A stretch of DNA of 64,000 nucleotides from Minisyncoccota bacterium (GCA_041653755.1 JBAZEU010000001.1:1398-65397), one strand, 5' to 3'; counted from the first letter of the stretch, positions 679-20,091 are shown. The notes: generated by a model not told the origin, from the letters alone. Numbers and translations are program-made.

Positions 679-718
679 AGCCAATGGCAAATACTGCATT
701 GGCTCTTTTTCTTTTGGA
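679..718 (+). terminator. Rho-independent terminator.
   Basis: A 9-bp stem gagccaatg/cattggctc is followed by tttttctttt. Confidence 0.5.
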
Positions 719-756
719 AAGCTACCTGATTTGAAGTTTCAAAAGTATCTGAAAAA

Positions 757-765
757 TGCTATAAT
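757..765 (+). promoter_or_regulatory. Candidate extended -10 promoter (TGcTATAAT) for the methyltransferase operon.
   Basis: The sequence tgctataat lies about 100 nt upstream of the ATG at 863. No clean -35 was found. Confidence 0.3.
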
Positions 766-862
766 CCAAAGTACGAGTACCTCAAGATAATTTTTTAGGA
801 AATTCGGTGCGAAACACAAAAAATAGGGTATTTCGATTGGAAATTTGGTAAAATAGAAAACT

Positions 863-2889: not shown

Positions 2890-2899
2890 TTTAATATGT

Positions 2900-3682: not shown

Positions 3683-3686
3683 ATTT

Positions 3687-6560: not shown

Positions 6561-6708
6561 ATTTTTTCTGCTAAACAACCATCCGCAAGAAAATTTTTGA
6601 ATTAATCACCACTAAAAACCAAACAGTATTTCTCCCAATGCCCCTTAATCCCAATAGTTATTAACACCCCCCTTGTTTTTCCTGCCAGATATCTTAGAAT
6701 TAGATTAA

Positions 6709-8241
6709 ATGAATTTTTCTAAATCACGCAAAGGTTTCACCCTCATAGAACTTCTAATCGTGATAGGTATCGTAGCAGTTCTAGCCGTCGTCGTCTTAAC
6801 AGTTCTCAATCCAGTGGAATTCCTCAAAAAAAGCAGGGACTCTAGGCGTATGGTAGACCTCCAGACCTTGGATAAAGCCCTAAGGTTAGCTGATTTTGAC
6901 AATATCTCCATGGGAACAGCCAATGTGGTATATGTTTCCATCCCTGATGACACAGCAGCCACCTCAACCTGTCCTACCCTATCCTTACCAGCTTTACCAG
7001 GAGGCTGGACTTATCAATGCTCTAATACTACTAACTACCGAAAAGCTGACGGTACTGGCTGGGTACCTGTTAACTTCACCTCTCTTACCACAGTTCCCAA
7101 TCCTTTAACCTTACTACCAGTTGATCCCACCAACAGTACTTCCACCAATCTCTACTATTCATATGTCTCTGGTAGTTGGGAACTTACTGCCTTATTTGAA
7201 ACCACTGGTTACCAAACCAAATACGCAGCCAGCGACAATGGCACTTCCACTGTCCTATTTGAAGTGGGCAACCATCTTAAGATTACCCCTAATGCGGTAG
7301 CTTCAAGGACTAATACCGGAGGAGGGGGAGGCGGAAGTTCCTACACCTTAACCTTTAATACCAGTCCTACTTATTCAGGTTCGGTTACCTTTGACGGTTC
7401 TTCCTACGCCAATGGCGATACTGCTTCCAAATCTTCAGGTTCTTACAATATTTCTGGCACCCCTGGTTCAGGCCGATCCTTTTCCTACTGGTCTCCTACA
7501 GGGATGACTGTCACTGACACCAGTACCTTAAGCACTTCTGCCACTGTCTCAGGCGCTGGCAGTTTATCCATGATTCAGGTTCCTGACTCATACACCAAAT
7601 TACTCCTACATATGGATGGGACGAATGGGTCAACTAGTTTCCCTGATAGTTCTACCGCGGCCCATACGGTTACAGCTAATGGAACCGCCCAAGTAACTAC
7701 TGCCCAACAAAAATTTGGGACAGGATCGGTTCAATGTAATGGAAGTGGTAATTATCTTACTTCTGCTGATAGTGATGATTGGTATTTTGGTACCAATGAT
7801 TTTACAGTTGATTTTTGGGCAAGAAATACAGGCGGAACTAATGTGTATTTAGTTAATCAATGGCACATTAACAGCGGTGGTGTAAGTATGAGTTGGGCTA
7901 TTCTTTGGAATAGTAGCAACGGAGTGCTTATTTTACTTAGAGATCATCCTGGAGCTTGGAATGATTTTAATCAATACAATACTAGTGGGATAACTATGTC
8001 TAGTAATACTTGGTACCATATAGCATTAGTAAGATACAACAACTATGTAGATATTTATGTTAACGGTACGTCTTACTTACACCAGGCTTATTCTCTTTCT
8101 CTCCAAAACAGTGACATGAATTTGGGTATTTGTGATTATATGGGAGCCCAAGGATTTACTGGGCAAATAGATGAAGTTCGTATTTCTAAAGGTATAGCTC
8201 GTTGGACTTCAAACTTTACTCCGCCAACAGCGCCGTATTAA
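6709..8241 (+). CDS. Type IV pilin-like protein (class III signal peptide) with a large S/T/G-rich body and a C-terminal LamG-like lectin domain.
   Basis: The N-terminus SRKG|FTLIELLIVIGIVAVLA carries a prepilin cleavage/methylation motif with E at +5. The C-terminal approx 200 aa (LLLHMDG...FTVDFWAR...RISKGIARWTSNFTPPTAPY) is a concanavalin/LamG_3-like jellyroll and is paralogous to the C-terminus of the 55820 ORF. Confidence 0.7.
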   Translation: MNFSKSRKGFTLIELLIVIGIVAVLAVVVLTVLNPVEFLKKSRDSRRMVDLQTLDKALRLADFDNISMGTANVVYVSIPDDTAATSTCPTLSLPALPGGWTYQCSNTTNYRKADGTGWVPVNFTSLTTVPNPLTLLPVDPTNSTSTNLYYSYVSGSWELTALFETTGYQTKYAASDNGTSTVLFEVGNHLKITPNAVASRTNTGGGGGGSSYTLTFNTSPTYSGSVTFDGSSYANGDTASKSSGSYNISGTPGSGRSFSYWSPTGMTVTDTSTLSTSATVSGAGSLSMIQVPDSYTKLLLHMDGTNGSTSFPDSSTAAHTVTANGTAQVTTAQQKFGTGSVQCNGSGNYLTSADSDDWYFGTNDFTVDFWARNTGGTNVYLVNQWHINSGGVSMSWAILWNSSNGVLILLRDHPGAWNDFNQYNTSGITMSSNTWYHIALVRYNNYVDIYVNGTSYLHQAYSLSLQNSDMNLGICDYMGAQGFTGQIDEVRISKGIARWTSNFTPPTAPY

Positions 8242-8290
8242 AGTAAAGATTAATCAGGTATCAATCTGCGGCTTATATTATATTTTTATA

Positions 8291-8779: not shown

Positions 8780-8847
8780 AAGACGGTAATATTAAGAAAT
8801 AATTAGACCCGAACAGATCTAACATCGCAGTCAGCGGAGTTTTCAAG

Positions 8848-9036
8848 GGTAAGTAGTGTAAATATGTCTTCCCGCACATTTTCTCCTATCTTAATTTTTA
8901 TTTCACAAACAGCGAAAATGGATCATAAGAAAAGGTTGGAAAAATATTTTTACGGTTCGTGGAAGTTTTTACTCTTTATTATATTTATCGATGTTCTTCA
9001 GGTAAAAAGTTCTAACATCGTCCACGAGCCTGCACC
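8848..9036. repeat. Dispersed repeat family, full copy A (~190 bp).
   Basis: About 85% identical to 15352-15540. The core gtcttcccgcacattttctcctatctt...cacaaacagcgaaaatg also occurs at 12838-12900 and 13131-13185. Confidence 0.7.
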
Positions 9037-9266
9037 AACGATGACTTTTTAACTCTAATTCACAATTCAGCTAGTAAATACAACAAAATTTTAGGTTCTA
9101 ATCTTTTATCAAATTATAGCAAAAAGGTAAGCACCCCAGAGAGGACTGGAACCATTCCCAAAAAGTTCGAATCCTAGGCACACCGCCAAACGCAGGGAAG
9201 CGTGTTCTTTGAAAAGTCTAAAAAATGTTTAGTTTAAAGACTGAAAGAATGTTAAGATAAAAATAT

Positions 9267-9569
9267 ATGATTTCAGGGATTACAGACAACAAGGCAATTC
9301 ATGAATTGCGAGATGAGCTTAGAGATTTAAATAAAAATCTAAAAAAGGCGAACAAAGAGAATAAAAGGTTAACCATACTCGTAATTATTATTGCTCTAGT
9401 TCAGTTTACGACTTCCTTATTCCAATTTCTGGTAGGCATAATATCTCTATCTCCTAGCGAAATTTGGTTGGGAATAATCCTAGAGGTACTTTTATTCTTG
9501 TTTATTTATAAAATAATCAAGGAATCGAGTTTATTTTTGAAGGAAGATAAGCAAAAAAGGAAAAATTAA
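9267..9569 (+). CDS. Hypothetical small membrane protein with an N-terminal charged coiled segment and two TM helices.
   Basis: ORF only. The hydrophobic stretches are LTILVIIIALVQF and IWLGIILEVLLFLFIY. Confidence 0.35.
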   Translation: MISGITDNKAIHELRDELRDLNKNLKKANKENKRLTILVIIIALVQFTTSLFQFLVGIISLSPSEIWLGIILEVLLFLFIYKIIKESSLFLKEDKQKRKN

Positions 9570-9673
9570 AGAAATTTCTTTGATTTTGAAAATCAAAAAT
9601 TATTGTCGGTGAGTTTGGCTGGTGATGATATCATAAATGATACATTGATATTTCCGCACTAAATTGTTATTCT

Positions 9674-10309
9674 GTGAATGATTACGTTTTGCCGTTAGGC
9701 GATAACTTTTTCCCTATGTCTTATATTGACGAAATTATTAAAAATATACCAAATGGCCTTTACTACCTAGCGGTAGGTTGGGTTGTTTGGCAAGTAGCAA
9801 GGTTTTATTTTATAAGATTCCGAGATTTAGAGAAAAAATCGGATGATATATCTGGTATTAGTAAAAAAATCGACGATAAGCTTGAACCTACTCTTATAAA
9901 AATAAACTCAACCCTTGATAGAATAAGTCGATACATCATTACGAAAGATTCTCTCGATCCAGCTTTTTTCAGCACTAATAGTCCGGTTGAGTTGAATGCT
10001 TTAGCGAATGAACTTTTGGAGAAAAGTGGTGGTACGGCGTTTGTAGATAACACTCTTGATTTTCTAGTTTCGAAGATTGAAGAACGAAATCCAAAAAGTA
10101 TATTGGATATTCAACAATTAGCAGTATCTGTGATTTTCGACCTTGTGGATACCGAAGCATTTAGCAAAATCAAAGACTTTGTTTACCAAAATCCAAAGTA
10201 TAAAAGTCAAGACGTGGACATACCCGTGATCATCAATATTATCGCTTTACACCTAAGGAACAAATATTTCGAGAAACACCCCGAACTCGAAAGTTCTAAC
10301 CAACAATAA
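9674..10309 (+). CDS. Hypothetical protein with an N-terminal TM helix.
   Basis: ORF with coding-like composition. No recognisable motif. Confidence 0.4.
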   Translation: MNDYVLPLGDNFFPMSYIDEIIKNIPNGLYYLAVGWVVWQVARFYFIRFRDLEKKSDDISGISKKIDDKLEPTLIKINSTLDRISRYIITKDSLDPAFFSTNSPVELNALANELLEKSGGTAFVDNTLDFLVSKIEERNPKSILDIQQLAVSVIFDLVDTEAFSKIKDFVYQNPKYKSQDVDIPVIINIIALHLRNKYFEKHPELESSNQQ

Positions 10310-10314
10310 ATTTT

Positions 10315-10740
10315 ATGTCTTACTTCGTTCGACCAACAACAAATCAGGGCATTCACGATAAAGCCGTTAAAGATATTGCACGGAAGCGGTTTGACGGCGT
10401 GAAATATGATGTTTATACAAACCCCGGCGGTGAGAAAAATGCTTATGTTGGATCGAAAACAAATCCGATCCATCCAGATATTCTTGTTTTAGAAAAGGGC
10501 TATGGACTTAGAACCGCGATTGCTATAGGAGAAATCGAAACATCAGATTCTATTACTGATAACGAAGCAGATCAGTGGAAAGAGTATGCGGCAACAAAAA
10601 TACCTTTTTATTTGTATATCCCCGCCGGGAATGCTAGCAAGGCAACGGATATTCTAAAGAAAAAAGGGATAAAAATTTCTGGCTTAAGAACATACAAATA
10701 TGATTCGTTAGGAGAATTAATTGTTTCTAATATCTTTTAA
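10315..10740 (+). CDS. Hypothetical protein.
   Basis: ORF starting 5 nt after the upstream stop, consistent with an operon. No confident motif. Confidence 0.4.
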   Translation: MSYFVRPTTNQGIHDKAVKDIARKRFDGVKYDVYTNPGGEKNAYVGSKTNPIHPDILVLEKGYGLRTAIAIGEIETSDSITDNEADQWKEYAATKIPFYLYIPAGNASKATDILKKKGIKISGLRTYKYDSLGELIVSNIF

Positions 10741-10847
10741 TATCGCCGCCAAAAAATTCGTCAGCCAGCGGAGTTCTCGAAGATAAGGGGCGTAGACTTA
10801 TAAGTTCTACCCCTTTATTTTAATAATCATTAATTTGTATAACTAAA

Positions 10848-11015
10848 ATGTTAAGCACTGAAAAAGTAAAAGAATTGCTAAAAGACCAAGCTATATCTGA
10901 TGAGGAAGCCGAAGAGATTAGGAATGGTTTCCGCGACCTGATCGAGATTATCTTTGAGAAGTGGATGGTTGATACAGGAAGAAGGAAGAGGCCAGATCAG
11001 AATTCGCTTACCTAA
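10848..11015 (+). CDS. Small 55-aa hypothetical protein, absent from the ORF track.
   Basis: ATG 10848 to TAA 11013-11015, followed by a hairpin plus T-run at about 11038-11067. Confidence 0.25.
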   Translation: MLSTEKVKELLKDQAISDEEAEEIRNGFRDLIEIIFEKWMVDTGRRKRPDQNSLT

Positions 11016-11100
11016 AAAACGTATTTTCCCCTCCCTGAACCAGTCTTGACGAAAGGCTGGTTTTTTGTTATCGTCCAACCAGATTTTTGATAATTAAAAC

Positions 11101-11170
11101 TTCTTTTATAGGGTAAATTTGTCCCTGAGAAATTCCTCTCGGGACCAGATAAAACCCTATGAAAGGGAAA
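11101..11170 (+). promoter_or_regulatory. Conserved structured 5' leader RNA motif, copy 1, upstream of pyrF.
   Basis: TTCTTTTATAGGGTAAATTTGTCC, then a hairpin, then CCAGATAAAACCCTATGAAAGGGA. The same motif with compensatory hairpin changes occurs at 14791-14860. Confidence 0.5.
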
Positions 11171-11179
11171 GGAGGGGTT

Positions 11180-11920
11180 ATGGAAGCAAAAGATAGGATT
11201 ATTGTTGCATTGGATGTGGACAGTCTGGAAAAGGCGAAGCCACTCGTAAAAAGTCTTGCTCCGCACGTCGGATGTTTCAAGGCTGGTTTAGAGCTGCTTA
11301 TGGCCGCTGGCGCTCCGAAGATTGTCGAGTTCATTCATTCGCTCGGTGGCGATGTCTTTCTCGACGGCAAGTTCAATGATATCCCAAATACGGTCGGCAA
11401 TTCAGCCAAAGTAGTCGCTGGGTTAGGAGTCGAGGCGTTTAATGTTCATGCCTCGGCTGGCATTGAAGCAATGATGGCCGCTGTCGCCAACAAAGGGGAA
11501 TCGATAGTTCTTGCCGTGACGGTACTCACTTCGTTAGAGGAAAACAATGTTTATTTAATCTTCGGCGCACCGAGCAAAGCTAAGGTTTTGCAATTGGCGC
11601 GTGATGCGAAGATCGCCGGCTGTGACGGTATTATCTGTTCGCCACAAGAGTTAGAATTTCTCGGGAAACAAAAAGGCATCGAGGGTTTGATGAAAGTCAC
11701 CCCGGGCGTTCGTCCAGAATGGGCCGCGGTAGGAGATCAAAAGAGAGTTATGACACCGGCAGAAGCTATTAAGGCCGGAGCAAACTACTTAGTTATTGGT
11801 CGACCAATAACTAAACCACCCGCGGAAATTGGCACGCCTATTGACGCAGCCAAGGCGATTGCAAAAGAAATTCAGGACGCGTTCGTTGATATGGAAATGA
11901 AGCAACAGTTTAAAGGTTAA
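11180..11920 (+). CDS. pyrF: Orotidine 5'-phosphate decarboxylase.
   Basis: Motifs IIVALDV and DGKFNDIPNTV match the OMPdecase D-x-K-x-x-DIPNT signature. An AAGGAGG RBS lies 6-8 nt before ATG 11180, so the track start at 11159 is probably too early. Confidence 0.8.
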   Translation: MEAKDRIIVALDVDSLEKAKPLVKSLAPHVGCFKAGLELLMAAGAPKIVEFIHSLGGDVFLDGKFNDIPNTVGNSAKVVAGLGVEAFNVHASAGIEAMMAAVANKGESIVLAVTVLTSLEENNVYLIFGAPSKAKVLQLARDAKIAGCDGIICSPQELEFLGKQKGIEGLMKVTPGVRPEWAAVGDQKRVMTPAEAIKAGANYLVIGRPITKPPAEIGTPIDAAKAIAKEIQDAFVDMEMKQQFKG

Positions 11921-11956
11921 CGAAAAGAAACAAAACTATGAAAGGAGGTGAAAGAC

Positions 11957-12745
11957 ATGAAAGGACCAGCAAAAAGAGCAAGCGAGTTAGTTTCAATCGC
12001 CAGGTTCGATCATTTGCTAACACTAAAGAGATGTGGCGGATATTATGAATGCCCCATTAGCCCAGAAGGCAAACTTTTGGGTCCTCTGGTTGGTTATGCG
12101 GGTAAGTACGAGGCGCCTGACAAAACCAAAAAACAGTGGGTTGGTATGATATATGCCAATTTTGCCAAAGCAGAAGAATATCCACACGTTTTGTATTGGT
12201 TCGCTCAGCAGATGATTAAGCCAAAGAAAATAGGAGCGGCAATTCTCGGCTTAACTGATGTTTTCTGCGGTGCTCCATTGGGCGGTTACGACTTTGCCAA
12301 GATGCTTGGTTTGGTTCTAGATCGTCGAGCAATCAAGGCTGAGAAAAAAGTAACTGCATTTGCGACAGCCGACATGCGCGAACAATCCACCATGACATTT
12401 GCTCGCCACGAAATAAAACCGGGAGACAGAGTCACAATAGTGGAGGACGTGTGTAATAACTTTTCAACAACCGATCAGCTTATCCAGTTGATCGAACAGG
12501 CGGGCGGTTCAGTAACGGCTATTACTTGTTTACTAAATCGTTCTTTGACCGTTGATTCAATCTACACCCCTCCACGTAAAATAGTGTCCTTGCCGGTCAT
12601 AAGTCTCGTCCGTTTACCGATCGCTGAGTTTAAACAAGAAGATTCTGCGGTCGCTGACGACATTGTCCGAGGCAACGTAGTTTTAAAGCCAAAGGATGAA
12701 TGGGGACGATTGATGGCAGCGATGGATAAGGAAGAAAAGCAATAA
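11957..12745 (+). CDS. Type I phosphoribosyltransferase, probably orotate PRTase (pyrE-like) given its position after pyrF.
   Basis: The PRPP-binding motif is VTIVEDVCNNFSTTDQ. RBS AAGGAGG at 11942-11948. At 265 aa it is longer than canonical PyrE. Confidence 0.5.
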   Translation: MKGPAKRASELVSIARFDHLLTLKRCGGYYECPISPEGKLLGPLVGYAGKYEAPDKTKKQWVGMIYANFAKAEEYPHVLYWFAQQMIKPKKIGAAILGLTDVFCGAPLGGYDFAKMLGLVLDRRAIKAEKKVTAFATADMREQSTMTFARHEIKPGDRVTIVEDVCNNFSTTDQLIQLIEQAGGSVTAITCLLNRSLTVDSIYTPPRKIVSLPVISLVRLPIAEFKQEDSAVADDIVRGNVVLKPKDEWGRLMAAMDKEEKQ

Positions 12746-12760
12746 AAAAACAAAGGGTTT

Positions 12761-12797
12761 AAGCGGCACCCGTCGAAAGACAAAGCCGCTTTTTCAT
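12761..12797 (+). terminator. Terminator after the pyrE-like gene.
   Basis: Stem aagcggc...gccgctt followed by ttttcatttc. Confidence 0.4.
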
Positions 12798-12837
12798 TTC
12801 AAGATTTTTTATATTTTTAATATGTTTCATAGTAGTA

Positions 12838-12900
12838 ATTTATCTTTCCGCGCATTTTCTCCCATCTTGATTTCCTTTTCATAAACAACGAAAATGAATA
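12838..12900. repeat. Partial copy C of the dispersed repeat core.
   Basis: tatctttccgcgcattttctcccatcttgatttccttttcataaacaacgaaaatg is about 80% identical to the copy A/B cores. Confidence 0.55.
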
Positions 12901-13069
12901 TATAAATATTAAAAAGGTTCCGATTCTTCCACAGATGTACCAGATAGAATATCTTTTAACTTCTGCCATCTCTTTAGTTCTTGTATTAGTCGGTTCCAGT
13001 TGAATCTTAAGAAGTGCACAAGTAGGTTAAAATAGCGTGTGGAAGCATATTTACCAGTCTTGACTACAA

Positions 13070-13098
13070 AAAACCGCTTAAAAAGCGGTTTTTTTATT
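13070..13098. terminator. Bidirectional hairpin terminator.
   Basis: aaaaccgctt aaaa agcggttttttt. Confidence 0.5.
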
Positions 13099-13130
13099 GT
13101 TTTTCTCCCCAAAAAGAACCTTTCGAGTAG

Positions 13131-13185
13131 GTAAAACTTGTCTTTAAAGACACATTCTCCTGTCTTGATTTTCCCTAAGGATTAA
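13131..13185. repeat. Partial copy D of the dispersed repeat core.
   Basis: gtaaaacttgtctttaaagacacattctcctgtcttgattttccc aligns to the start of copy B. Confidence 0.45.
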
Positions 13186-13238
13186 TATTGATCATTCCAA
13201 AATCGTCAAAAAGGCGGTTTTGCTGGTATAATATCAAT

Positions 13239-14666
13239 ATGGTTTCTTCTACAAAAGAAAAAATTAGTGCTTATCTTGAAGTATCCCCAAAACAATTAGA
13301 GAAACTTGGGGTTTTTGATGCCATAATAGGCATTGATAGCAATCTTTTTATAGATCCCCACCTCCTCAACAAAATTAAAGTTTTAGAGTTCAAAGAATCA
13401 CGGAAAAAACTTGAAAAATATTTTTCTGAAATAATTACGCTTTTACAATCATCGCAACAGAAAGGTGACAGAGCTTGGCGTGAAGCTCAACGCAGACTTA
13501 TTTTTCATGAGACTCGTGGAGTTTCAATTGGCTACGGAGTTAAAAGTAGCGATGGACGAGCTATTGGTATTGGTTTAGGCAGTAAACTCATAGAAACTGC
13601 TGACGAAATTATAAAAATGGGGATAAAAGACCCAGCTATTTTTGAATTAATAGGATTGTTTGAAGAAAAATTTGGTGCCGATAGGCTAAGCGACATGACC
13701 ATTTCAATCCTTAGTGAAAGTTTTTTGGAGTATACAGAAAGAGTTACAAAAACATTGGCAATAAAGAAAGCTGCTATTTTTCAAACGCCAAGTCGAAAAT
13801 ACCTTCTGCCTATACACCCAAGCGGTAACGAACCGATTATTTTCCTCCCAACTTCTCTGTTAAGAGATTTGCCTGTGGCATTTACTTGGGACGATATAAA
13901 TTACGTTGTTTCAGTGAACCAAGAACTGCGGCAAAGATTGAATACTTTAATTGGCAGGGTTTGGTCAAGAAGAATGAAGTTATTGAAAAGAGATTTGCGA
14001 AGCCTTATTTTCAGTAATCCAGATAACATCAAAATGCTTGTTGAGGCATACAAGAAAAATACGGCTGGAGCCTATGATATAAAAAATGACCCAAGTGGAT
14101 ATTTGGTTTGGTATGAAATTGGAAAACATTTTGCGGAGACAAATAGACTCAAGATAGATAATAGATTACCGAAAACGTTGGCTGAAGTGGAGAAGGTAGT
14201 TGAGGCGATAATAGAGCAGTTTAAGAAAAATATCGAAGTTAATGGTTTAAACGAACACCTTTATGTAAACGGAAAAGTGCGACCAGAACGTTTTAGCCAA
14301 AGACTTTTTTTCAGTGTTGCTGACACATATTGCGCTGCTAATAACGTTGATTTGAGTCGTGAACCAAATGCTGGAAGCGGACCAGTAGATTTCAAAGCAA
14401 GTGGAGGATACACGGCTAGAACCCTTGTAGAAATTAAGCTTTCTTCAAATAAAAGCCTTATAAGTGGATATATGAAACAAATAGAAGCTTACAAAAAGAG
14501 TGAAAGCACAGAAAGTTGTTTTTATGTAGTTATCAAAGTGACAAGATCAGAAAGCAATATAAAACGTCTTCTCGGAATAAGAGATGCTCTACTCTCACAG
14601 AAAAAAGATTGTCCAGAAATTATTGTTATTGACGGGACAATGCAACCTTCAGCGAGTAGAAGATAG
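13239..14666 (+). CDS. Large hypothetical protein with a C-terminal PD-(D/E)xK-like motif. The start could be the upstream codon at 13188.
   Basis: The C-terminus GPVDFKASGGYTARTLVEIKLS has D-x15-E-I-K spacing typical of restriction-endonuclease-fold nucleases. The N-terminal 380 aa have no recognised motif. Confidence 0.45.
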   Translation: MVSSTKEKISAYLEVSPKQLEKLGVFDAIIGIDSNLFIDPHLLNKIKVLEFKESRKKLEKYFSEIITLLQSSQQKGDRAWREAQRRLIFHETRGVSIGYGVKSSDGRAIGIGLGSKLIETADEIIKMGIKDPAIFELIGLFEEKFGADRLSDMTISILSESFLEYTERVTKTLAIKKAAIFQTPSRKYLLPIHPSGNEPIIFLPTSLLRDLPVAFTWDDINYVVSVNQELRQRLNTLIGRVWSRRMKLLKRDLRSLIFSNPDNIKMLVEAYKKNTAGAYDIKNDPSGYLVWYEIGKHFAETNRLKIDNRLPKTLAEVEKVVEAIIEQFKKNIEVNGLNEHLYVNGKVRPERFSQRLFFSVADTYCAANNVDLSREPNAGSGPVDFKASGGYTARTLVEIKLSSNKSLISGYMKQIEAYKKSESTESCFYVVIKVTRSESNIKRLLGIRDALLSQKKDCPEIIVIDGTMQPSASRR

Positions 14667-14790
14667 TGCTCTTCATAACCCTATTTCCCAACGAGCATAA
14701 ATAAAGTACTTTTTAGTATAAATCATCATTCATTGACAAACCTAGCGATTTTTGTTATTGTTCGCTTAGTATTTTAATAATCTACAGTCT

Positions 14791-14860
14791 TTCTTTTATA
14801 GGGTAAATTTGTCCTTGAGTTGAGATTTCCTCAACCTCGAGGCCAGATAAAACCTTATAA
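14791..14860 (+). promoter_or_regulatory. Conserved structured 5' leader RNA motif, copy 2.
   Basis: The flanks are identical to copy 1. The internal hairpin ccttgagttgag/ctcaacctcgagg is longer but preserved by covarying positions. Confidence 0.5.
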
Positions 14861-14872
14861 AGGGAGGAAGAA

Positions 14873-15271
14873 ATGAATGGATGGTTTATTTTTTGGGCTG
14901 TTGTTGTTACGTTTTTCGCTTTGTGCATGAGCTTTCTTCTCGGTTTTAATCTGCGGCCTGAAAAGCAGAATGTTGATTTGGCAAAGATTTTAGCTATGCT
15001 CATGGTTGTCGGAGCTTTAGCGCTTCCATTGCTTTGGAGGTATGTCAACGCCGGAGATCTGCTCGAGGCAGGAGCTTTAAAAGCCAATGCGGTGTACGAA
15101 CTTCGCGGCCAAGTTGATACGGGGAGAGGAACAACTGCTGCTATTTTGGTAGATATGGCAGGGCATATTAAAGCCTGTAAGCTTAAAAGTCCTATCCTTG
15201 CCCCGCCTAAGTTTCTCAGGACTCACGTCTTACCAAACGGAGCAATGGAGCTCCAGCCAATTAGCCCTTGA
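14873..15271 (+). CDS. Small hypothetical membrane protein (2-3 TM helices).
   Basis: GGAGG RBS. Hydrophobic N-terminal half. It sits directly downstream of leader motif copy 2. Confidence 0.4.
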   Translation: MNGWFIFWAVVVTFFALCMSFLLGFNLRPEKQNVDLAKILAMLMVVGALALPLLWRYVNAGDLLEAGALKANAVYELRGQVDTGRGTTAAILVDMAGHIKACKLKSPILAPPKFLRTHVLPNGAMELQPISP

Positions 15272-15351
15272 AAACCATCTTTTCATCATTGTATCGAAGA
15301 CCCCACCACAGCAATTGTGATGGGATCTTTATTTTTCAGACTATATTTATA

Positions 15352-15540
15352 GTAAGGAGTGTAAACTTATCTTCCCGCACAAATTTTCCCATCTTGCTTT
15401 CTTTCTCACAAACAGCGAAAATGAATCATAAGAAAAGGCTGGAGAAATATTTTTAAAGGCTTCGTGGAAGTTTCTATTCTTTATCATACTTATCGATGTT
15501 TTTCAGATAAAAAGTTCTAACGTCGTCCACGAGCCTGCAC
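15352..15540. repeat. Dispersed repeat family, full copy B.
   Basis: About 85% identical to 8848-9036. It ends 1 nt before the ATG of the MBL hydrolase gene. Confidence 0.7.
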
Positions 15541-15541
15541 T

Positions 15542-16192
15542 ATGACTAAAATTACAAAATATATTCATTCAGCGGTTCTAATAGAACATAAAAATAAAAG
15601 GATTTTGATTGACCCGGGGTGCTATTGCTATAGCGAAAATTTTTCCGCAAACGATTGGGGCAAGGTTGATATTTTATTGATTACTCATTCGCACAAAGAC
15701 CATTTCGTGATAGAGGCAGTAGGAACAATAAGACAAAATAATCCTAATCTTGTTATATTCTCTACCAAGGCAATAGAAGAGGTCTTATCTAAAGAAAATA
15801 TTGATTGTGAGGTTTTGAACCCTGACGAGGAAAAATTAGTGGATGGCATTAAAATAAAAGGCGTAAAGCAAGCCCACGGAGATTTACCATCAGGTGATCC
15901 AAGACCGGATGTGATTGGTTTTTTAATTGATGATAAGTTTTATCATCCAGGCGATACAATCTACATGGAAGAAAAGCCAAAGACAGAAGTTCTATTTGTT
16001 CCGTTTAATGGGATTGTTACGATGGATATAAAAGAAGCTGCAAAGTTTTCTAAGGAAATAAATCCTAAAATAATAATTCCAATTCATTATAATAGTCCAA
16101 AGTTTCCGGTTGATGTAAACGACTTCGTAAAAGAAATGGAGGGTTACAATGTTAAGGTTCTCAAAAATGGAGAGAGTATTGAGATAGAATAA
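15542..16192 (+). CDS. MBL-fold metallo-hydrolase.
   Basis: The HxHxDH motif is LLITHSHKDHF. Confidence 0.75.
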   Translation: MTKITKYIHSAVLIEHKNKRILIDPGCYCYSENFSANDWGKVDILLITHSHKDHFVIEAVGTIRQNNPNLVIFSTKAIEEVLSKENIDCEVLNPDEEKLVDGIKIKGVKQAHGDLPSGDPRPDVIGFLIDDKFYHPGDTIYMEEKPKTEVLFVPFNGIVTMDIKEAAKFSKEINPKIIIPIHYNSPKFPVDVNDFVKEMEGYNVKVLKNGESIEIE

Positions 16193-16194
16193 GC

Positions 16195-17115
16195 TTATTT
16201 TAATTCTTTTCTTCGTCTCCCATGAAATGCTTGGTGGACTTCTCTTAACTCTTGGTTGGTTAAATGAGTGTAAATTTGAGTTGTAGAAACATTCTGATGG
16301 CCTAAGATTTCTTGGACTGAGCGCAAGTCCGCGCCGCCGATTAAAAGATCAGTAGCAAAAGCATGGCGAATAGTATGCGGGTGAATATTGGTAGTAATGC
16401 CGGCTTTTATCGCATAGTGCTCCACTAATCTTTCAATAGTTCTAGGAATAATACGGCCGATGATTTTCGGTTCTTTCGCTTTGGTTAAGCTTATAAACAT
16501 TGTCTCTTCGGTGTCATTTCTTTTATCTAAATAATTTTTTATCGCTTTTCTTGCTCTGTCCGAAAGGAAAACTAATCTTATTTTACCTCCTTTTCCGCGC
16601 ACCGAAACCTCTCCTCTTTCTAGATCGAGATAACGATCCAAAGCGCATAATTCGGAAACTCGTAAGCCGGTTGAAAATAAAACCTCTAAAATTGCTTTAT
16701 CGCGCAAAGATTTTAAGTCGTTTCCTGACGGAGCAGAGAGCAATCGTTCCAAATCCTTATATTCCAATATTTTAATTTGTCGTTCTGGGATTTTGGGGAG
16801 CTCGATATTATCTGAAGCCAGAACATCGTAATTATTTTTTGCTAAGTATTTTAGAAAATTCCTGATAGCGATTATGTAATATGATTGGGTATTTTTTTGA
16901 AGAGGTTCATTTTGTTGGGCGCCTTGTTGTTTACTTAAAAATAGTCGAAAATCGCGGACTTTGTCTTGAGTAATATCTTTTTCGGTTTTTATTTTTGAGA
17001 AGCTAAAAAATGCTTTAAGATAGCGCTCATAGTTTTTTTGCGTCTTCGGCGAGCGGTTTTTCTCAATTTCCAGATAGGCCAGGTAATCTTTTAAAAGTTG
17101 GTTTATGTCAGCCAT
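16195..17115 (-). CDS. xerC: Tyrosine recombinase XerC/XerD family.
   Basis: An N-terminal SAM-like core-binding domain. The catalytic region contains R...HTIRHAFAT...LGHQNVSTTQIYTHL with the terminal Tyr. Confidence 0.85.
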   Translation of the reverse strand: MADINQLLKDYLAYLEIEKNRSPKTQKNYERYLKAFFSFSKIKTEKDITQDKVRDFRLFLSKQQGAQQNEPLQKNTQSYYIIAIRNFLKYLAKNNYDVLASDNIELPKIPERQIKILEYKDLERLLSAPSGNDLKSLRDKAILEVLFSTGLRVSELCALDRYLDLERGEVSVRGKGGKIRLVFLSDRARKAIKNYLDKRNDTEETMFISLTKAKEPKIIGRIIPRTIERLVEHYAIKAGITTNIHPHTIRHAFATDLLIGGADLRSVQEILGHQNVSTTQIYTHLTNQELREVHQAFHGRRRKELK

Positions 17116-17200
17116 TAGGGTAAGTATAGAGCATTCAGGGAAGTGTCGCAAAATCTCTCGAATTTGCTTTTTAGAAATATTTGGGCTATAATAGATTCAA

Positions 17201-17467
17201 ATGTTAACACCAAGAAAAAAATCAAAAGTCATTAAAGAGCACCAGATTCACGAGAAGGACACTGGTTCAGCTGAAGTGCAGGTAGGCCTTTTAACTAAAC
17301 AAATTGAAGAATTAGTAAGCCATCTAAAAAAGCACTCAAAAGACAACCACTCTCGACGTGGCCTTTTAAAAATGGTTGGCCGAAGAAAAAAGTTTTTAAG
17401 TTATATTCAAAAAGCCGATCCTAAGAGGTACCAGAAAGTGGTTAAAAAGTTAGGGTTGAAAGAATAA
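17201..17467 (+). CDS. rpsO: 30S ribosomal protein S15.
   Basis: Motif HSKDNHSRRGLLKMVGRRKKFLSYI. Confidence 0.9.
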   Translation: MLTPRKKSKVIKEHQIHEKDTGSAEVQVGLLTKQIEELVSHLKKHSKDNHSRRGLLKMVGRRKKFLSYIQKADPKRYQKVVKKLGLKE

Positions 17468-17471
17468 AAAA

Positions 17472-17999
17472 ATGCGATATAAGGATCAGAGGGTTGGAAT
17501 TTTCATTGATGTTCAGAATTTGTATCATTCTGCCAAACATCTCTACTCCAGCCGTGTTAATTACAAAGAACTTTTAAGATTTTTATTAGCCGGAAGAAAT
17601 CCGATCAGGATTATTGGCTACGTCGTTAAAAGCGAAGGAATTGGAGGCGATAATCGGCCTGACGCATCGAAAAGCGAAAAACTTTTCTTCGATGCTTTGG
17701 AAAAAGCCGGTGTTGAGTTAAGAAGTAAAGATTTACAAATTTATCCTGGCGGACTTAAAAAAGCTGATTGGGACGTTGGGTTGGCAGTCGACGCTATCAG
17801 AATGGCGTCGGCTTTAGATGTAGTCATTTTAGTAACTGGCGATGGCGATTTCGTTCCATTGGTTGAGTATTTGAAATGGGGCTTGGGCAGACAAGTTGAA
17901 ATTGCCGGTTTTTCAAGAAGCGCTTCTGCCAAGCTAAAAGATTCAGCTGATTTGTTTCTAAACATCGAGGAGATCCCAAAGATTTTAATCAGAAAATAA
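17472..17999 (+). CDS. NYN-domain (LabA/DUF88-like, PIN-fold) protein, a predicted RNase.
   Basis: GIFIDVQNLY, then DVGLAVDA, then ILVTGDGDF acidic residues in NYN order. Confidence 0.65.
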   Translation: MRYKDQRVGIFIDVQNLYHSAKHLYSSRVNYKELLRFLLAGRNPIRIIGYVVKSEGIGGDNRPDASKSEKLFFDALEKAGVELRSKDLQIYPGGLKKADWDVGLAVDAIRMASALDVVILVTGDGDFVPLVEYLKWGLGRQVEIAGFSRSASAKLKDSADLFLNIEEIPKILIRK

Positions 18000-18006
18000 T
18001 TCAATA

Positions 18007-20091
18007 ATGAATTTAGATAGAAAACAATTTGAAACCGAAGTGGCCGGGCAGAAGGTCATTTTTGAAGTTTCCAAAATCGGCGAGCAAGCCAGTGCGGCAG
18101 TTTTGGGTAAATATGGAGAAACAGTGGTGTTAGCGACAGTGGTTATGGATAAAAAAGATAGGGAAGCAAACTATATGCCGTTAACGGTTGATTATGAAGA
18201 GAAGTTTTACGCGGCTGGGAAAATTTTAGGCAGTCGTTTTGTCAGGCGGGAAGGAAAGCCGTCGGAAGAAGGCATTCTTTCAGCGCGTTTAATCGATAGG
18301 ACTATTCGTCCCCTTTTTGACCAGAGGATAAGAAGAGGAATCCAGGTGATAGCTACGGTTCTCTCTTATGACGAAGAAAACGATCCTGATTTTATTGCTT
18401 TGATGTCTGCTTCTTTGGCTTTAGCAATTTCTGACGTGCCTTGGAATGGTCCGGTTGGCGGAGTGAGAATAGCTTTGTCAAAAGACGGAAAGATTATTCT
18501 GAACCCGACCAATCTACAGATGGTTGACGCAAGATTCAAAACAATTGTTTCTGGGCCAAAAGGCAAAATTAATATGATCGAGTTAGAAGGCGGTCAGATA
18601 CAAGAAAAAGAAGTTATTGAAGCGTTTAAGCTAGCGACAAGCGAAATAGATAAGCTTGTTGATTTTCAAAACGAAATCGTAAAACAAATTGGTAAGAATA
18701 AAACCGTTGTTCCTTTGGCTGAACCAGAAGCAGAGCTTAAAACCGAAGTTCAAAAATATCTTTCAGATAAACTAGAAGCGGTAGTTTATGTAAAAGAAAA
18801 AACTGATCGCCAATCAAATCTTTTTGATTTAACAAAAGAATTAAAAGATTATTTAACAGAAAAAGGTTTCGCCAATTTAACTTTGGTGGATAATTTAATT
18901 GATGAAGCGATAGAAAATTTAGTTCGTAAAAATGTTTTAGAGTCAGAGAGACGACCAGACCTTAGAAAGCTTGATGAGTTAAGACCGCTTTACGCTGAAG
19001 TTTCTTTATTAAAGCGGTTGCACGGTTCAGCAATTTTCGTTCGGGGCAATACGCAATCATTAGCAGTAACAACATTGGCGGCGCCTGGCTCTGAACAGTT
19101 AATTGAAACAATGGAAACATCTACCAAGCGAAGATTTTTGCTCCATTATAACTTCCCTCCGTTTTCAGTAGGAGAAACCGGTCCGTTAAGGGGACCGGGT
19201 CGCAGAGATATCGGTCATGGCGCTTTAGCGGAAAAAGCCGTACGTAATCTTCTTCCCTCACAAGACGAATTTCCTTATACAATCAGGGTGGTTTCTGAGA
19301 TTCTTTCTTCAAATGGTTCTTCTTCGATGGCCACGGTTTGCGCCACTTCTTTATCTTTGATGGATGCCGGAGTGCCGATTAAAAATCCGGCAGCCGGTAT
19401 TGCTATGGGTTTGGTAACAGACGGCAAGAATCATAAAGTTCTTACCGATATTCAAGGCCCGGAAGATCATTTCGGTGATATGGATTGTAAGGTAGCCGGC
19501 ACCCAAGAAGGAATAACGGCTATGCAAATGGATACGAAAGTTGAAGGACTTGGCATAGACGTTTTAGAAAAAGTTTTGATTCAAGCCAAAAAAGCGCGAT
19601 TGGAAATTTTAGATGTTATAACTAAAACCTTAGATAAGCCACGAGCAGAAATTTCTACTTATGCTCCGACGGTTTTGGCTCATACGATTTTGCCGGAACA
19701 AATCAGAGATGTGATTGGTCCGGGCGGCCGAGTGATTAACGGCATTATGGAATCAACAGGCGCTACTACTATTGATGTTGAACAAACCGGGAAAGTTTTC
19801 GTCGCTGCGTCTTCAAAAGAAAAAGCTGAAGCCGCGATGAATCAAATTAAAGGAATTACTCATAAATATCAAATTGGTGAAATTATTGATGGGGAAGTTA
19901 TAAAGATTTTGGACTTTGGCGCTATTGTCGGCTTCAACGGGAAAGATGGTCTTCTTCATATTTCAGAAATGAAAGACGGTTTTGTCAAAAAAACCGAGGA
20001 CGTTGTAAAGCTCGGCGATAAGCTTAGGGTGAAAATTATCAAAGTTGACGACGATGGTCGGCTTGGATTAACATTGAAAAACGTAGAGTAA
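18007..20091 (+). CDS. pnp: Polynucleotide phosphorylase.
   Basis: Two RNase PH domains, a KH domain (GPGGRVINGI) and a C-terminal S1 domain across 694 aa. Confidence 0.95.
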   Translation: MNLDRKQFETEVAGQKVIFEVSKIGEQASAAVLGKYGETVVLATVVMDKKDREANYMPLTVDYEEKFYAAGKILGSRFVRREGKPSEEGILSARLIDRTIRPLFDQRIRRGIQVIATVLSYDEENDPDFIALMSASLALAISDVPWNGPVGGVRIALSKDGKIILNPTNLQMVDARFKTIVSGPKGKINMIELEGGQIQEKEVIEAFKLATSEIDKLVDFQNEIVKQIGKNKTVVPLAEPEAELKTEVQKYLSDKLEAVVYVKEKTDRQSNLFDLTKELKDYLTEKGFANLTLVDNLIDEAIENLVRKNVLESERRPDLRKLDELRPLYAEVSLLKRLHGSAIFVRGNTQSLAVTTLAAPGSEQLIETMETSTKRRFLLHYNFPPFSVGETGPLRGPGRRDIGHGALAEKAVRNLLPSQDEFPYTIRVVSEILSSNGSSSMATVCATSLSLMDAGVPIKNPAAGIAMGLVTDGKNHKVLTDIQGPEDHFGDMDCKVAGTQEGITAMQMDTKVEGLGIDVLEKVLIQAKKARLEILDVITKTLDKPRAEISTYAPTVLAHTILPEQIRDVIGPGGRVINGIMESTGATTIDVEQTGKVFVAASSKEKAEAAMNQIKGITHKYQIGEIIDGEVIKILDFGAIVGFNGKDGLLHISEMKDGFVKKTEDVVKLGDKLRVKIIKVDDDGRLGLTLKNVE

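What the first reader, a model, noticed from the sequence alone, without database searches (positions are those of the whole stretch)
8848..15540. Dispersed ~190-bp repeat family (two full and two partial copies) concentrated in an 8-kb accessory-like segment
Copies at 8848-9036 and 15352-15540 are about 85% identical over about 190 bp. The ~60-nt core GTMTTYCCGCRCAWWTTYTCCYRTCTTGMTTTYY...CAYAAACARCGAAAATG recurs at 12838-12900 and 13131-13185. A shorter CAGCGGAGTTYTCRAAG motif is shared by 8831-8848 and 10773-10790. Every copy lies in an intergenic space immediately upstream of plus-strand ORFs: 9267, 13239 and 15542 (ending 1 nt before its ATG). Each full copy contains an internal inverted pair, ttcgtggaag...cgtccacgag, and a mini-ORF starting M(D/N)HKKRLEKYF that runs 62 codons in copy A but stops after 11 codons in copy B. 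That argues the element is RNA or DNA, not protein. It could be a MITE-like element, a shared promoter/leader cassette or a small RNA gene family. The genes it flanks are mostly orphan ORFs, which suggests a recombination-prone accessory region.
Basis: seen in the sequence. Interest (0 to 1): 0.6.

Follow-up and report, generated by a model that had tools for sequence, protein, structure and literature searches.

The report
Repeated cassette hiding a tiny gene
A ~190-base sequence repeated in a gene island of an uncultured Paceibacteria genome is real and recurs in related metagenome contigs; its opposite strand carries a conserved 18-32-codon gene flanked by promoter- and terminator-like modules, so it looks like an antisense-controlled small-protein locus, not a jumping element.

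Summary
The repeats are real. A (8848-9036) and B (15352-15540) are about 85% identical, and the core recurs at C (12831-12901) and D (13126-13185). No other copy lies in the 64 kb. The source is a Candidatus Paceibacterota MAG.

Three metagenome contigs (two populations) carry the same element in a fuller form with four modules:
- M1: the core.
- M2: the body, ending GCCTGCAC.
- M3: a hairpin plus an intrinsic terminator.
- M4: equivalent to D, a promoter module.

A and B are M1+M2. C is M1 + unrelated DNA + M3, followed by D.

The plus-strand mini-ORF is not conserved. However, the best-conserved block encodes a micro-ORF on the minus strand, (M)CRLVDDVRTFY…, 17-32 codons long. It is intact in five sequence contexts, including a more distant organism. 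Its substitutions are almost all synonymous (A vs B: 6 of 7, permutation P=0.008). M1 shows no coding signal.

Promoter-like and terminator-like sites suggest a plus-strand RNA antisense to the micro-ORF, an ibs/sib-like layout. The peptide is hydrophilic and fails the type I toxin criterion.

There are no terminal inverted repeats and no Rfam, Pfam, phage or plasmid match.

Verdict: a lineage-specific small-gene/antisense cassette duplicated in a defence island. Its function is unproven.

The parts
8848..9036 (.). Copy A: modules M1 (core) + M2 (body), ending GCCTGCAC.
   Evidence: 85-87% identical to B. nhmmer E 3e-56. 70% identical to L006/L007 over ~190 nt.
8891..8919 (+). Candidate plus-strand promoter in M1 of A. 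It reads TTAATT-N17-GAAAAT; the other copies have TTGmTT-N17-GAAAAT.
   Evidence: A regex finds the same spacing in A, B and C, and it is visible in L006/L007 in alignment A2. It does not reach the threshold of the consensus scan. This is an inference only.
8969..9025 (-). Micro-ORF (ORF-a) in A. From the in-frame GTG it reads VDDVRTFYLKNIDKYNKE*. The conserved codons C-R-L continue to 9034, but the TTG start of relatives is TGG here.
   Evidence: A vs B shows 7 differences, all transitions: 6 synonymous (including TAA->TAG) and 1 N/D. Permutation P=0.008.
8953..8964 (+). 5' arm of the long-range helix in A. It pairs with 9021-9031.
   Evidence: RNAalifold predicts 11 pairs. C->U changes in L006/L007 keep G.U pairs on the plus strand only. 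Inverted repeat I2.
9021..9031 (+). 3' arm of the long-range helix in A (TCCACGAGCCT). It overlaps codons 2-5 of the minus-strand micro-ORF.
12831..12901 (.). Copy C: M1 only. It is the orthologue of M1 in L006/L007 (86% identical to L006).
12902..13014 (.). Segment X: unrelated ~113 nt that replaces M2 in copy C. It is not an inversion of M2.
   Evidence: Local alignments of X, in both orientations, to M2 of A, B, L006 and L007 score no better than shuffled sequence.
13015..13095 (.). Module M3. It holds the junction TGCAC|AAGT, with the TTG start codon of relatives on the minus strand (only TTG TGC is left here). It also holds the hairpin 13020-13062 and the intrinsic terminator 13068-13095.
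   Evidence: Aligned with L006/L007. The hairpin shows AU<->GC and UA<->AU compensatory changes. The terminator is found, and its L007 homologue is called on both strands.
13100..13238 (+). Copy D = module M4. It holds a core-like motif at 13126-13185 with the palindrome TGTCTTTAAAGACA (13139-13152). It also holds the promoter TCGTCA-N18-TGgTATAAT (13203-13232), whose -10 lies 6 nt before the ATG at 13239, which implies a leaderless mRNA.
   Evidence: 88% identical to L006 and 86% to L007. Promoter scan. Palindrome kept with a variable centre in three genomes.
15352..15540 (.). Copy B: M1 + M2. It abuts the ATG of the MBL-fold hydrolase gene at 15542.
   Evidence: The homologous MBL genes in relatives never have the element upstream.
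15474..15530 (-). Micro-ORF (ORF-a) in B. From the GTG it reads VDDVRTFYLKNIDKYDKE*. The upstream in-frame codon at the position of the TTG start is TAG.
15394..15422 (+). Candidate plus-strand promoter in M1 of B (TTGCTT-N17-GAAAAT).
   Evidence: Inference only.
8832..8848 (+). Short motif CAGCGGAGTTTTCAAGG, just left of A. It forms a ~33-nt similarity with 10755-10790.
   Evidence: sequence.
10766..10782 (+). Second copy of the short motif. It lies between the stop codon of ORF 10315-10740 and a terminator-like hairpin.
   Evidence: sequence.

Best explanation
The repeats are copies of a compact small-gene cassette specific to this Paceibacteria lineage.

In its fullest form (contigs L006 and L007) the cassette is about 420 nt and has four modules:
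- M1: a conserved, non-coding, pyrimidine-rich core.
- M2: a ~115-nt body. Its 3' block encodes, on the opposite strand, the start of a 17-32-codon micro-protein, (M)CRLVDDVRTFY….
- M3: a hairpin plus an intrinsic terminator.
- M4: a promoter module for the next plus-strand gene.

Shown:
- The modular homology.
- The purifying-selection pattern on the minus-strand micro-ORF.
- The absence of coding signal in M1.
- A conserved long-range helix.
- Terminator hairpins.

Inferred:
- The micro-ORF is transcribed leaderless, from an A/T-rich -10-like hexamer 6-7 nt before its TTG/ATG start.
- A plus-strand RNA starts in or just after M1, runs antisense across the whole micro-ORF, and stops at the M3 terminator. 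It would control the micro-ORF as cis-antisense RNAs do in ibs/sib-type loci.

In this window the orthologous copy (C + D) has lost the micro-ORF. A and B are M1+M2 derivatives without M3 and without the native start codon. Their plus-strand promoter would now read into the downstream genes (ORF 9267; the MBL gene 15542).

The copies sit at junctions between unrelated gene cassettes in a defence island. They probably serve as homology patches for cassette exchange.
For: Homologues and module layout.

Micro-ORF:
- It is open, with the same N-terminus, in A, B, L004, L006, L007 and L027.
- A vs B: all 7 differences are transitions, 6 of them synonymous including stop->stop, P=0.008.
- Variable sites by codon position are 8/2/12.
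- AGA<->CGA, CTC<->CTA, GAT<->GAC and AGG<->CGC all keep the residue.
- Indels among copies fall outside the ORF.

Plus-strand frames are broken in relatives, and the 62-aa ORF has 0 homologues. M1 has no periodicity (15/17/20).

Plus-strand helix: 11 bp, with C->U changes that keep G.U pairs on the plus strand only. The 2-nt insertion in B adds a C-G pair.

Terminators: an intrinsic terminator lies 45-150 nt after M2 in C, L004, L006 and L007. The M3 hairpin shows compensatory changes.

Independent organism L027 shows the same layout. The minus micro-ORF is at 2637-2735. A plus-strand promoter-like site CTGACA-18-TATGAT lies at 2614-2643. A plus-strand terminator lies at 2748-2761 and a minus-strand terminator at 2476-2457.

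Leaderless use in this genome: TATAAT lies 6 nt before the ATG at 13239.
Against: - There are no expression data. The plus-strand promoter in M1 was picked by eye and fails the consensus scan.
- Only four independent lineages are available, so the statistics are modest (P=0.008 for the best pair).
- A and B lack the TTG start (TGG and TAG instead). They may be untranslated relics, or may start at the GTG without a good Shine-Dalgarno sequence.
- The peptide is hydrophilic, with at most 7 of 15 hydrophobic residues. A toxin role like that of known type I toxins is therefore unsupported.
- A weak minus-strand hairpin in M1 is also compatible with the data. Strand assignment of M1 is therefore open.
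- The helix shows no double compensatory change.
Confidence: 0.45

Rival explanations
1. The element is a purely cis-acting plus-strand promoter/5'-leader cassette (a 'mobile promoter'). It has been copied in front of unrelated genes, and the micro-ORF signal is accidental.
For: - Every copy is co-oriented with, and upstream of, a plus-strand gene.
- B ends 1 nt before the MBL ATG, whereas relatives place another gene there.
- D/M4 holds a near-consensus promoter.
- M1 is non-coding.
Against: - In four of six contexts (C, L004, L006, L007) the M1-M2 (or M1-X) unit is followed by a terminator before any gene, so it does not lead into a coding region there.
- This reading does not explain third-position-only variation in the best-conserved block.
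- It also does not explain conservation of that block in L027 without M1.
Confidence: 0.17
2. The element is a stand-alone plus-strand small RNA gene family: promoter in M1, structured body M2, hairpin and terminator M3. It has no translated product on either strand.
For: - Long-range helix with plus-strand-only G.U pairs.
- M3 hairpin with compensatory changes plus a terminator.
- Terminators follow M2 in four contexts.
- An M3-like trailer also follows a genuine tRNA-Leu in L006.
Against: - There is no conserved structure inside the helix, and z-scores are unremarkable (-2.2 for A, -0.65 for B).
- There is no Rfam match.
- The coding-type substitution pattern is left unexplained.
Confidence: 0.15
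3. The copies are decaying remnants of the 5' end of a longer minus-strand gene, or of a small mobile unit. They were left at the junctions of successive cassette insertions and have no present function in this genome.
For: - A and B lack the start codon, and C keeps only two codons.
- Peptide tails differ between lineages.
- The junction at GCAC|AAGT recurs in five contexts (A, B, C, L004, and tRNA-Leu/M3' in L006).
Against: - Stop codons are kept at the same place in A and B through a TAA->TAG change, and the tails also vary synonymously.
- M1 and M4 are 86-88% conserved between genomes whose flanking genes differ completely.
Confidence: 0.12
4. The element is a MITE-like non-autonomous mobile element, or an att/recombination site used by the neighbouring Xer-type tyrosine recombinase (16195-17151, minus strand). 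A and B would mark the ends of an inserted 6.5-kb segment.
For: - The element has sharp homology boundaries with unrelated flanks.
- Direct repeats lie 6.5 kb apart, next to a tyrosine recombinase.
- The M2 3' end loosely resembles a tRNA 3' end and shares its trailer with tRNA-Leu in L006.
Against: - There are no terminal inverted repeats, and no target duplication by inspection.
- Only 3-4 copies exist, all in one orientation.
- A and B are only 85% identical, unlike fresh att duplicates.
- The recombinase scores as XerC/D/XerA, not as an integron or phage integrase.
- M2 is not tRNA-like by covariance model or ARAGORN.
- There are 0 hits in viral contigs, phages or plasmids.
Confidence: 0.08

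Closest known systems
ibs/sib loci of E. coli (the SIB, formerly QUAD, intergenic repeats); type I toxin-antitoxin modules in general (PMC2887945, PMC2943612)
   Same: - Dispersed or duplicated intergenic repeats of a few hundred nt, missed by gene callers.
- Each holds a very short ORF (18-30 codons).
- On the opposite strand there is, here by prediction only, a structured RNA with its own terminator that fully overlaps the ORF.
- Sequence similarity extends beyond the coding part.
   Different: - The peptide is hydrophilic and charged. It has no 15-residue stretch with at least 10 hydrophobic residues (7 at best), whereas type I toxins are defined as small hydrophobic proteins.
- No expression or toxicity data exist.
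- There is no sequence or Rfam similarity to any known family.
- The window copies lack the canonical start codon.
Putative mobile promoters: homologous intergenic sequences upstream of non-homologous genes (Matus-Garcia, Nijveen and van Passel 2012, cited from my own knowledge)
   Same: The same ~190-nt intergenic sequence sits in front of unrelated genes (ORF 9267; MBL 15542). The related M4 module sits in front of three different genes in three genomes.
   Different: Most complete copies end in a terminator rather than leading into a gene, and the element contains an opposite-strand ORF under selection.
Modular intergenic repeats such as pneumococcal BOX elements or neisserial Correia elements (from my own knowledge)
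   Same: Modular build (M1-M4 in different combinations), an intergenic location, a potential to form long hairpins, and a potential to supply promoters or terminators to neighbours.
   Different: Copy number is very low. There are no terminal inverted repeats. Orientation is single. A coding signature is present.

Membership tests
Type I toxin-antitoxin module (criteria of Fozo et al. 2010, PMC2887945) | Short ORF (16-70 aa) in an intergenic region, missed by annotation | tested here: met
   The ORF is 17-32 codons. It is not called in the source or in any contig, and the exact peptides are absent from the 15-billion-protein collection.
Type I toxin-antitoxin module (criteria of Fozo et al. 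2010, PMC2887945) | Predicted transmembrane stretch: at least 10 of I, V, L, F, C, M, A within 15 residues | tested here: not met
   The best window has 7 of 15 in all four peptide variants. Mean hydropathy is -0.1 to -1.3.
Type I toxin-antitoxin module (criteria of Fozo et al. 2010, PMC2887945) | Antisense or overlapping small RNA that represses the ORF | tested here: inconclusive
   Promoter-like and terminator-like sites bracket the ORF on the plus strand. This is clear in L027 and weaker in the window, L006 and L007. No transcript data exist.
Type I toxin-antitoxin module (criteria of Fozo et al. 2010, PMC2887945) | Duplicated copies, with similarity extending beyond the ORF | tested here: met
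   A, B and C lie within 7 kb. Homology covers M1 as well as the ORF.
Type I toxin-antitoxin module (criteria of Fozo et al. 2010, PMC2887945) | Toxicity of the peptide on overexpression | not testable with these tools
   This needs an experiment.
MITE / non-autonomous transposon | Terminal inverted repeats | tested here: not met
   No inverted repeat joins the two ends in A, B, L006 or L007. Only internal pairs are found.
MITE / non-autonomous transposon | Target-site duplication, and many copies in both orientations | tested here: not met
   The flanks of A, B, L006 and L007 share no duplicated bases (sequences). There are 3-4 copies in 64 kb, all on one strand. The rest of the genome could not be read.
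Any Rfam 15 RNA family | Covariance-model score at or above the gathering threshold | tested here: not met
   Only three tRNAs are found in the window at gathering thresholds. Relaxed scans of A, C/D, B, L006, L007 and L027 give only sub-threshold, terminator-driven hits.
tRNA / tRNA-like element | Cloverleaf recognised by the tRNA covariance model or ARAGORN | tested here: not met
   There is no tRNA hit on M2 even at E up to 10, and ARAGORN finds none. Only the 72-73-nt spacing of the helix arms and a GTTCkAAC motif resemble a tRNA.
Integron (attC cassettes with IntI) | Integron integrase next to the array | tested here: not met
   The recombinase scores 107.9 bits against a cut-off of 265 for TIGR02249. 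It matches XerC, XerD and XerA models best. It also lies convergent to, not divergent from, the repeats.
Putative mobile promoter | Homologous intergenic sequence upstream of non-homologous genes | tested here: met
   A lies before ORF 9267 and B before MBL 15542. M4 lies before three different genes in the window, L006 and L007.
Putative mobile promoter | Demonstrated promoter activity | not testable with these tools
   Only consensus matches are available.

The most novel reading that the evidence does not exclude
This is a previously undescribed family in Candidate Phyla Radiation bacteria: a hydrophilic ~20-30-residue micro-protein controlled by a fully overlapping antisense RNA. It would work as a type-I-like addiction or regulatory module. 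Its conserved non-coding arms (M1, M3, M4) would also act as the junction sequences at which defence-island gene cassettes are exchanged.
Probability: 0.22. Interest if true: 0.7.

Novelty: new variant of a known kind. Interest (0 to 1): 0.5.

Why it matters
Small proteins and antisense RNAs are almost unexplored in Patescibacteria (CPR). These organisms cannot be grown alone, and their annotation omits ORFs this short. A full-text search found no paper linking type I toxin-antitoxin systems to the Candidate Phyla Radiation.

If the micro-ORF and its antisense RNA are real, two things follow:
- This would be a lineage-specific regulatory or addiction module sitting exactly at the boundaries of defence-island cassettes.
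- It would give a handle for finding cassette junctions and hidden small genes in CPR genomes.

The case also carries a methodological lesson. A repeat judged 'not protein' from one strand can hide a selected micro-ORF on the other strand.

Tried and rejected
1. Plus-strand 62/44-aa mini-ORF as a gene. Rejected: 0 hits among 1.84 billion protein representatives, the start is lost or the frame broken in L004, L006, L007 and B, and it is not in the protein collection.
2. Coding in M1 on either strand (the 'FSLF..RKxRWE..GK' frame; SD+ATG 'M[CR]GK'). Rejected: no codon periodicity (15/17/20), and the frame is broken in A and L004.
3. Segment X of copy C as an inverted M2 (an invertible switch). 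Rejected: alignment scores equal those of shuffles in both orientations.
4. tRNA-like M2. Rejected as membership.
5. Extension of A/B homology into the MBL gene start or into the left flanks. Rejected: scores at shuffle level.
6. The element as a conserved leader of the MBL gene. Rejected: in 5 sets of relatives the MBL gene is tightly preceded by other genes, and no locus matches the profile.
7. The element upstream of DUF8370 homologues. Rejected: absent upstream in L027-L029. Only a 19-nt block-3 match with its micro-ORF was found, downstream of the gene in L027.
8. Phage or plasmid origin. Rejected: 0 hits in IMG/VR patterns and in INPHARED and PLSDB.
9. Genome-collection scan. It gave one chance hit only, L002. 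Of the five metagenome hits, L003 and L005 are also chance matches.
10. Reading the rest of the 195-kb source contig. This was not possible; only short Logan fragments were returned.
11. Integron or dif-module reading. Rejected: see the membership test.

Full report
**Observation.** The repeats exist as described. The repeat finder returns A/B as two ungapped blocks: 8849-8952 vs 15352-15455 at 85%, and 8939-9035 vs 15444-15540 at 87%. A 2-nt indel separates them. A degenerate 27-nt core pattern hits 8867, 12843 and 15370, with none expected by chance. A shorter pattern adds 13155. An nhmmer profile of five full copies finds A, B, C (12831-12901, E 3e-15) and D (13123-13174, E 4e-4) and nothing else in the 64 kb.

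**Source and setting.** The MBL-fold protein after copy B is identical to one from a 'MAG: Candidatus Paceibacterota bacterium', on a 194,951-nt contig.
- Window 1-8.8 kb holds a PD-(D/E)XK nuclease, a DNA methylase with a TdeIII-type endonuclease, a Hypoth_Ymh protein, a 957-aa SMC-like ATPase, a pilin-like protein and a dCMP deaminase.
- 8.8-15.5 kb holds orphan ORFs that are singletons in the protein collection. It also holds pyrF with a divergent pyrE-like gene. A 475-aa DUF8370/8371 protein there matches the PADLOC candidate PDC-M36A.
- From 15.5 kb on come the MBL gene, a Xer-type tyrosine recombinase (minus strand), rpsO, an NYN protein, PNPase, NusA and ClpP.

The repeats therefore lie in the distal part of a defence/accessory island, next to core genes.

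**Relatives and anatomy.** One scan of JGI metagenome contigs with a pattern fitting all four window copies gave five hits. L004, L006 and L007 are true homologues, 70-72% identical to A/B over ~190 nt. L004 and L006 come from one population. L003 and L005 are chance matches. The single genome-collection hit, L002, is chance too.

Aligning them shows four modules:
- **M1:** a ~75-nt core.
- **M2:** ~115 nt, ending GTCCACGAGCCTGCAC.
- **M3:** ~80 nt, a hairpin plus an intrinsic terminator.
- **M4:** ~130 nt.

L006 and L007 carry M1-M2-M3-M4. Window 12831-13238 is the orthologue: M1 is 86% and M3-M4 88% identical to L006. There, however, M2 is replaced by an unrelated 113 nt, which is not an inversion of M2. 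A and B are M1+M2 only. L004 has M1+M2 followed by a different hairpin and terminator.

The genes on both sides differ completely among the window, L006, L007 and L004. In L006 an M3-like trailer (nhmmer E 8e-7) also follows a genuine tRNA-Leu(GAG).

**Plus-strand coding is excluded.**
- The 62-aa ORF of copy A has no homologue among 1.84 billion protein representatives.
- Its MDHKK start is ATA in L004/L006, and it is followed by 5 codons in L007.
- B is frameshifted.
- M1 shows no codon periodicity. Variable sites per phase are 15, 17 and 20.

**A hidden micro-ORF on the minus strand.** The best-conserved block, AAAAAGTTCkAACrTCGTCCACGAGCCTGCAC, reads on the minus strand as (start)-C-R-L-V-D-D-V-R-T-F-Y.

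| Copy | Minus-strand reading | Length |
|---|---|---|
| L007 | MCRLVDDVRTFYIEKLRDLDK* | 21 aa |
| L004, L006 | MCRLVDDVRTFYI(E/K)KL…KDSTNL* | 29 aa |
| A | [W]CRLVDDVRTFYLKNIDKYNKE* | 18 aa from the in-frame GTG |
| B | [*]CRLVDDVRTFYLKNIDKYDKE* | 18 aa from the in-frame GTG |
| L027 | MLRIVDDVRTYWQTTTDRFFIPKLSLETVQLS* | 32 aa |

 L027 comes from a different, more G+C-rich organism and was reached through a 73%-identical DUF8370 homologue. It shares an exact 19-mer with B.

Evidence that this frame is under coding selection:
- All seven A/B differences in the ORF are transitions. Six are synonymous, including TAA->TAG. Seven random transitions do as well in 0.8% of trials.
- Over codons 2-21 of five sequences, variable sites by codon position are 8/2/12.
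- AGA<->CGA, CTC<->CTA, GAT<->GAC, ACT<->ACC and AGG<->CGC all keep the residue.
- L007 vs L004 shows 5 synonymous and 2 non-synonymous changes.
- The indels that distinguish copies lie outside the ORF.

The plus-strand frame that shares the same third positions has no start codon and stops before the conserved block.

The peptide has no Pfam or PDB relative. It is not in the protein collection. It is hydrophilic.

**Non-coding modules.**
- *Long-range helix.* On the plus strand an 11-bp helix joins AGG(C)TTyGTGGA to TCCACGAGCCT, 72-73 nt apart. C->U changes in L006/L007 keep G.U pairs that would be A.C on the minus strand. B's 2-nt insertion adds a C-G pair. There is no double compensatory change.
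- *M3.* It folds into a hairpin with two compensatory pairs (AU<->GC, UA<->AU), followed by a terminator. In L007 the scan calls that terminator on both strands.
- *M1.* It has no plus-strand structure. On the minus strand it can form an 11-bp hairpin, paired in all five copies through G.U pairs. The controls are weak.
- *M1 promoter candidates.* All full copies keep TTGmTT-N17-GAAAAT (TTAATT in A) and an invariant AAACArC. Either could serve as a weak plus-strand promoter just left of the micro-ORF stop. Neither passes the scan threshold in the window.
- *M4.* It holds the palindrome TGTCTTnnAAGACA, whose centre varies in three genomes. That suggests a protein-binding site rather than an RNA hairpin. 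It also holds TCGyCA-N18-TGgTATAAT, whose -10 lies 6 nt before the ATG at 13239, implying a leaderless mRNA.
- *Micro-ORF start.* An A/T-rich hexamer with A at position 2 and T at position 6 lies 6-7 nt before the TTG/ATG of the micro-ORF in the window's C copy, L004, L006, L007 and L027 (sequences). This was read by eye.
- *L027.* The scan independently gives a plus-strand promoter-like site (CTGACA-18-TATGAT, 2614-2643). It overlaps the micro-ORF stop codon. It also gives a plus-strand terminator (2748-2761) just beyond the start, and a minus-strand terminator downstream at 2476-2457.

**Interpretation.** The simplest account that covers both strands is a small-gene cassette. A minus-strand micro-ORF is fully overlapped by a plus-strand antisense RNA running from the M1 3' end to the M3 terminator. 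M4 is the promoter of the next gene.

This is the layout of cis-antisense small-ORF loci such as ibs/sib. Those were also first noticed as dispersed intergenic repeats, and their ORFs are missed by annotation (PMC2887945, PMC2943612).

- *Shown:* homology, modules, the coding signature, helices and terminator hairpins.
- *Inferred:* both promoters, the antisense relationship, and any regulatory or toxic role.

In this genome the orthologous copy has lost the ORF. A and B lack M3 and the TTG start (TGG and TAG). They may be translated from the GTG, or they may be relics whose plus-strand promoter now serves ORF 9267 and the MBL gene. In relatives the MBL gene is always tightly preceded by, or overlaps, another gene and has no such element. 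B therefore marks the island/core junction.

**Rivals.** A pure promoter/leader cassette, a pure sRNA gene, decaying remnants of a longer gene, and a MITE or att site are each scored in the rival list. Arguing against a MITE or att site:
- no terminal inverted repeats;
- no target duplication;
- few copies, all in one orientation;
- 85% identity between A and B;
- a Xer-type recombinase, not an integron or phage-type one;
- no hits in viral, phage or plasmid collections.

The recurrent breakpoint at GCAC|AAGT (A, B, C, L004, and tRNA-Leu/M3' in L006) can mean either of two things. It may be a recombination-prone junction, or simply the end of the selected unit, since it coincides with the micro-ORF start.

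**Comparison and novelty.** The locus works like an ibs/sib-type module in layout. It fails the defining hydrophobic-toxin criterion (7 of 15 where at least 10 are needed). It matches no Rfam or Pfam family. I file it as a new variant of a known kind (an antisense-overlapped micro-ORF repeat), not as a member of type I toxin-antitoxin systems. A literature search found no report of type I systems in CPR bacteria.

**Limits.** Only four independent lineages could be collected. The genome-wide copy number could not be read. No expression data exist. The best single statistic is P=0.008.

Noticed in passing
window 11046-11175 and 14733-14870: A second repeat family, not part of the finding. Each copy has a promoter-like site (TTGACG/TTGACA-N17-TATCGT/TATTGT with an upstream TG), then a ~75-nt long irregular hairpin (cttttatagggtaaatttgtccYtga…tcgRgRccagataaaaccYtatRaaaggga), then a strong Shine-Dalgarno sequence and ATG. 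One copy precedes the pyrF/pyrE-like operon and the other precedes the orphan 132-aa ORF 14873. One C-G to U-A compensatory pair is seen, the apical loop varies, and there is no Rfam match. It is a candidate cis-regulatory leader or riboswitch, possibly pyrimidine-related.
   Followed up: partly
window 8800-8850; 10755-10790; L007 1406-1435: Two short recurring motifs lie in post-stop-codon spacers. The first, TCGyCAGyCAGCGGAGTTyTCrAAGrTAAG, occurs at 8815-8850 and 10755-10790. The second, TAATTAGnCCGAAnCAnATCTAACATCG, occurs at window 8800-8828 and upstream of a gene in L007. The second shares TCTAACATCG with the micro-ORF block of the main element. Both are unexplained.
   Followed up: partly
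window 12817-12969 (minus strand): In copy C, the DNA that replaces the micro-ORF opens a 50-codon minus-strand ORF: MAEVKRYSIWYICGRIGTFLIFIYSFSLFMKRKSRWEKMRGKINYYYETY. It has a hydrophobic stretch that meets the 10-of-15 criterion for type I toxins, followed by a charged, W- and Y-rich tail. Its C-terminal half is encoded by M1. It is not in the protein collection. The equivalent frame is broken in A and L004, so it may be a chance ORF in purine-rich sequence.
   Followed up: partly
window 9126-9190: The sequence AAAAAGTTCGAATCCTAGGCACACCGCCA, 130 nt after copy A, looks like a tRNA T-loop and 3' end with CCA. It begins with the same AAAAAGTTC as the micro-ORF block. No tRNA model hit is found, and the three real tRNA genes of the window do not encode CCA. 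Nearby, CCAGAGAGG (9137) matches the core of the PyrR-binding consensus, which could be chance.
   Followed up: partly
L006 23-612: A LAGLIDADG-type ORF (23-463) overlaps the 5' end of an intact tRNA-Leu(GAG) gene (449-533). The tRNA is followed by a trailer homologous to module M3.
   Followed up: partly
window 7590-8243 vs 57211-57876; 56378-57205: The 3' end of the pilin-like gene 6709-8241 (Laminin_G_3 domain) is 79% identical in DNA to the 3' end of ORF 55820-57874. That ORF also contains three ~300-nt internal tandem repeats.
   Followed up: no
window 863-6560 and 13239-14666: Defence-type content: a DNA methylase with a TdeIII-family endonuclease, a Hypoth_Ymh protein, a 957-aa SMC-like ATPase, and a leaderless DUF8370/8371 gene. 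The DUF8370/8371 gene matches PADLOC candidate PDC-M36A. Its homologues occur in several phyla next to serine recombinases, restriction-modification genes and umuC-like genes (L028/L029).
   Followed up: partly
window 686, 6672 and 11040: The independent Logan assembly of the same sample (SRR18595300) breaks into separate contigs corresponding roughly to window 686-6672 and 11040-19300. The stretch holding copy A was therefore not assembled with its neighbours there. This could reflect strain variation or repeats in the island.
   Followed up: no
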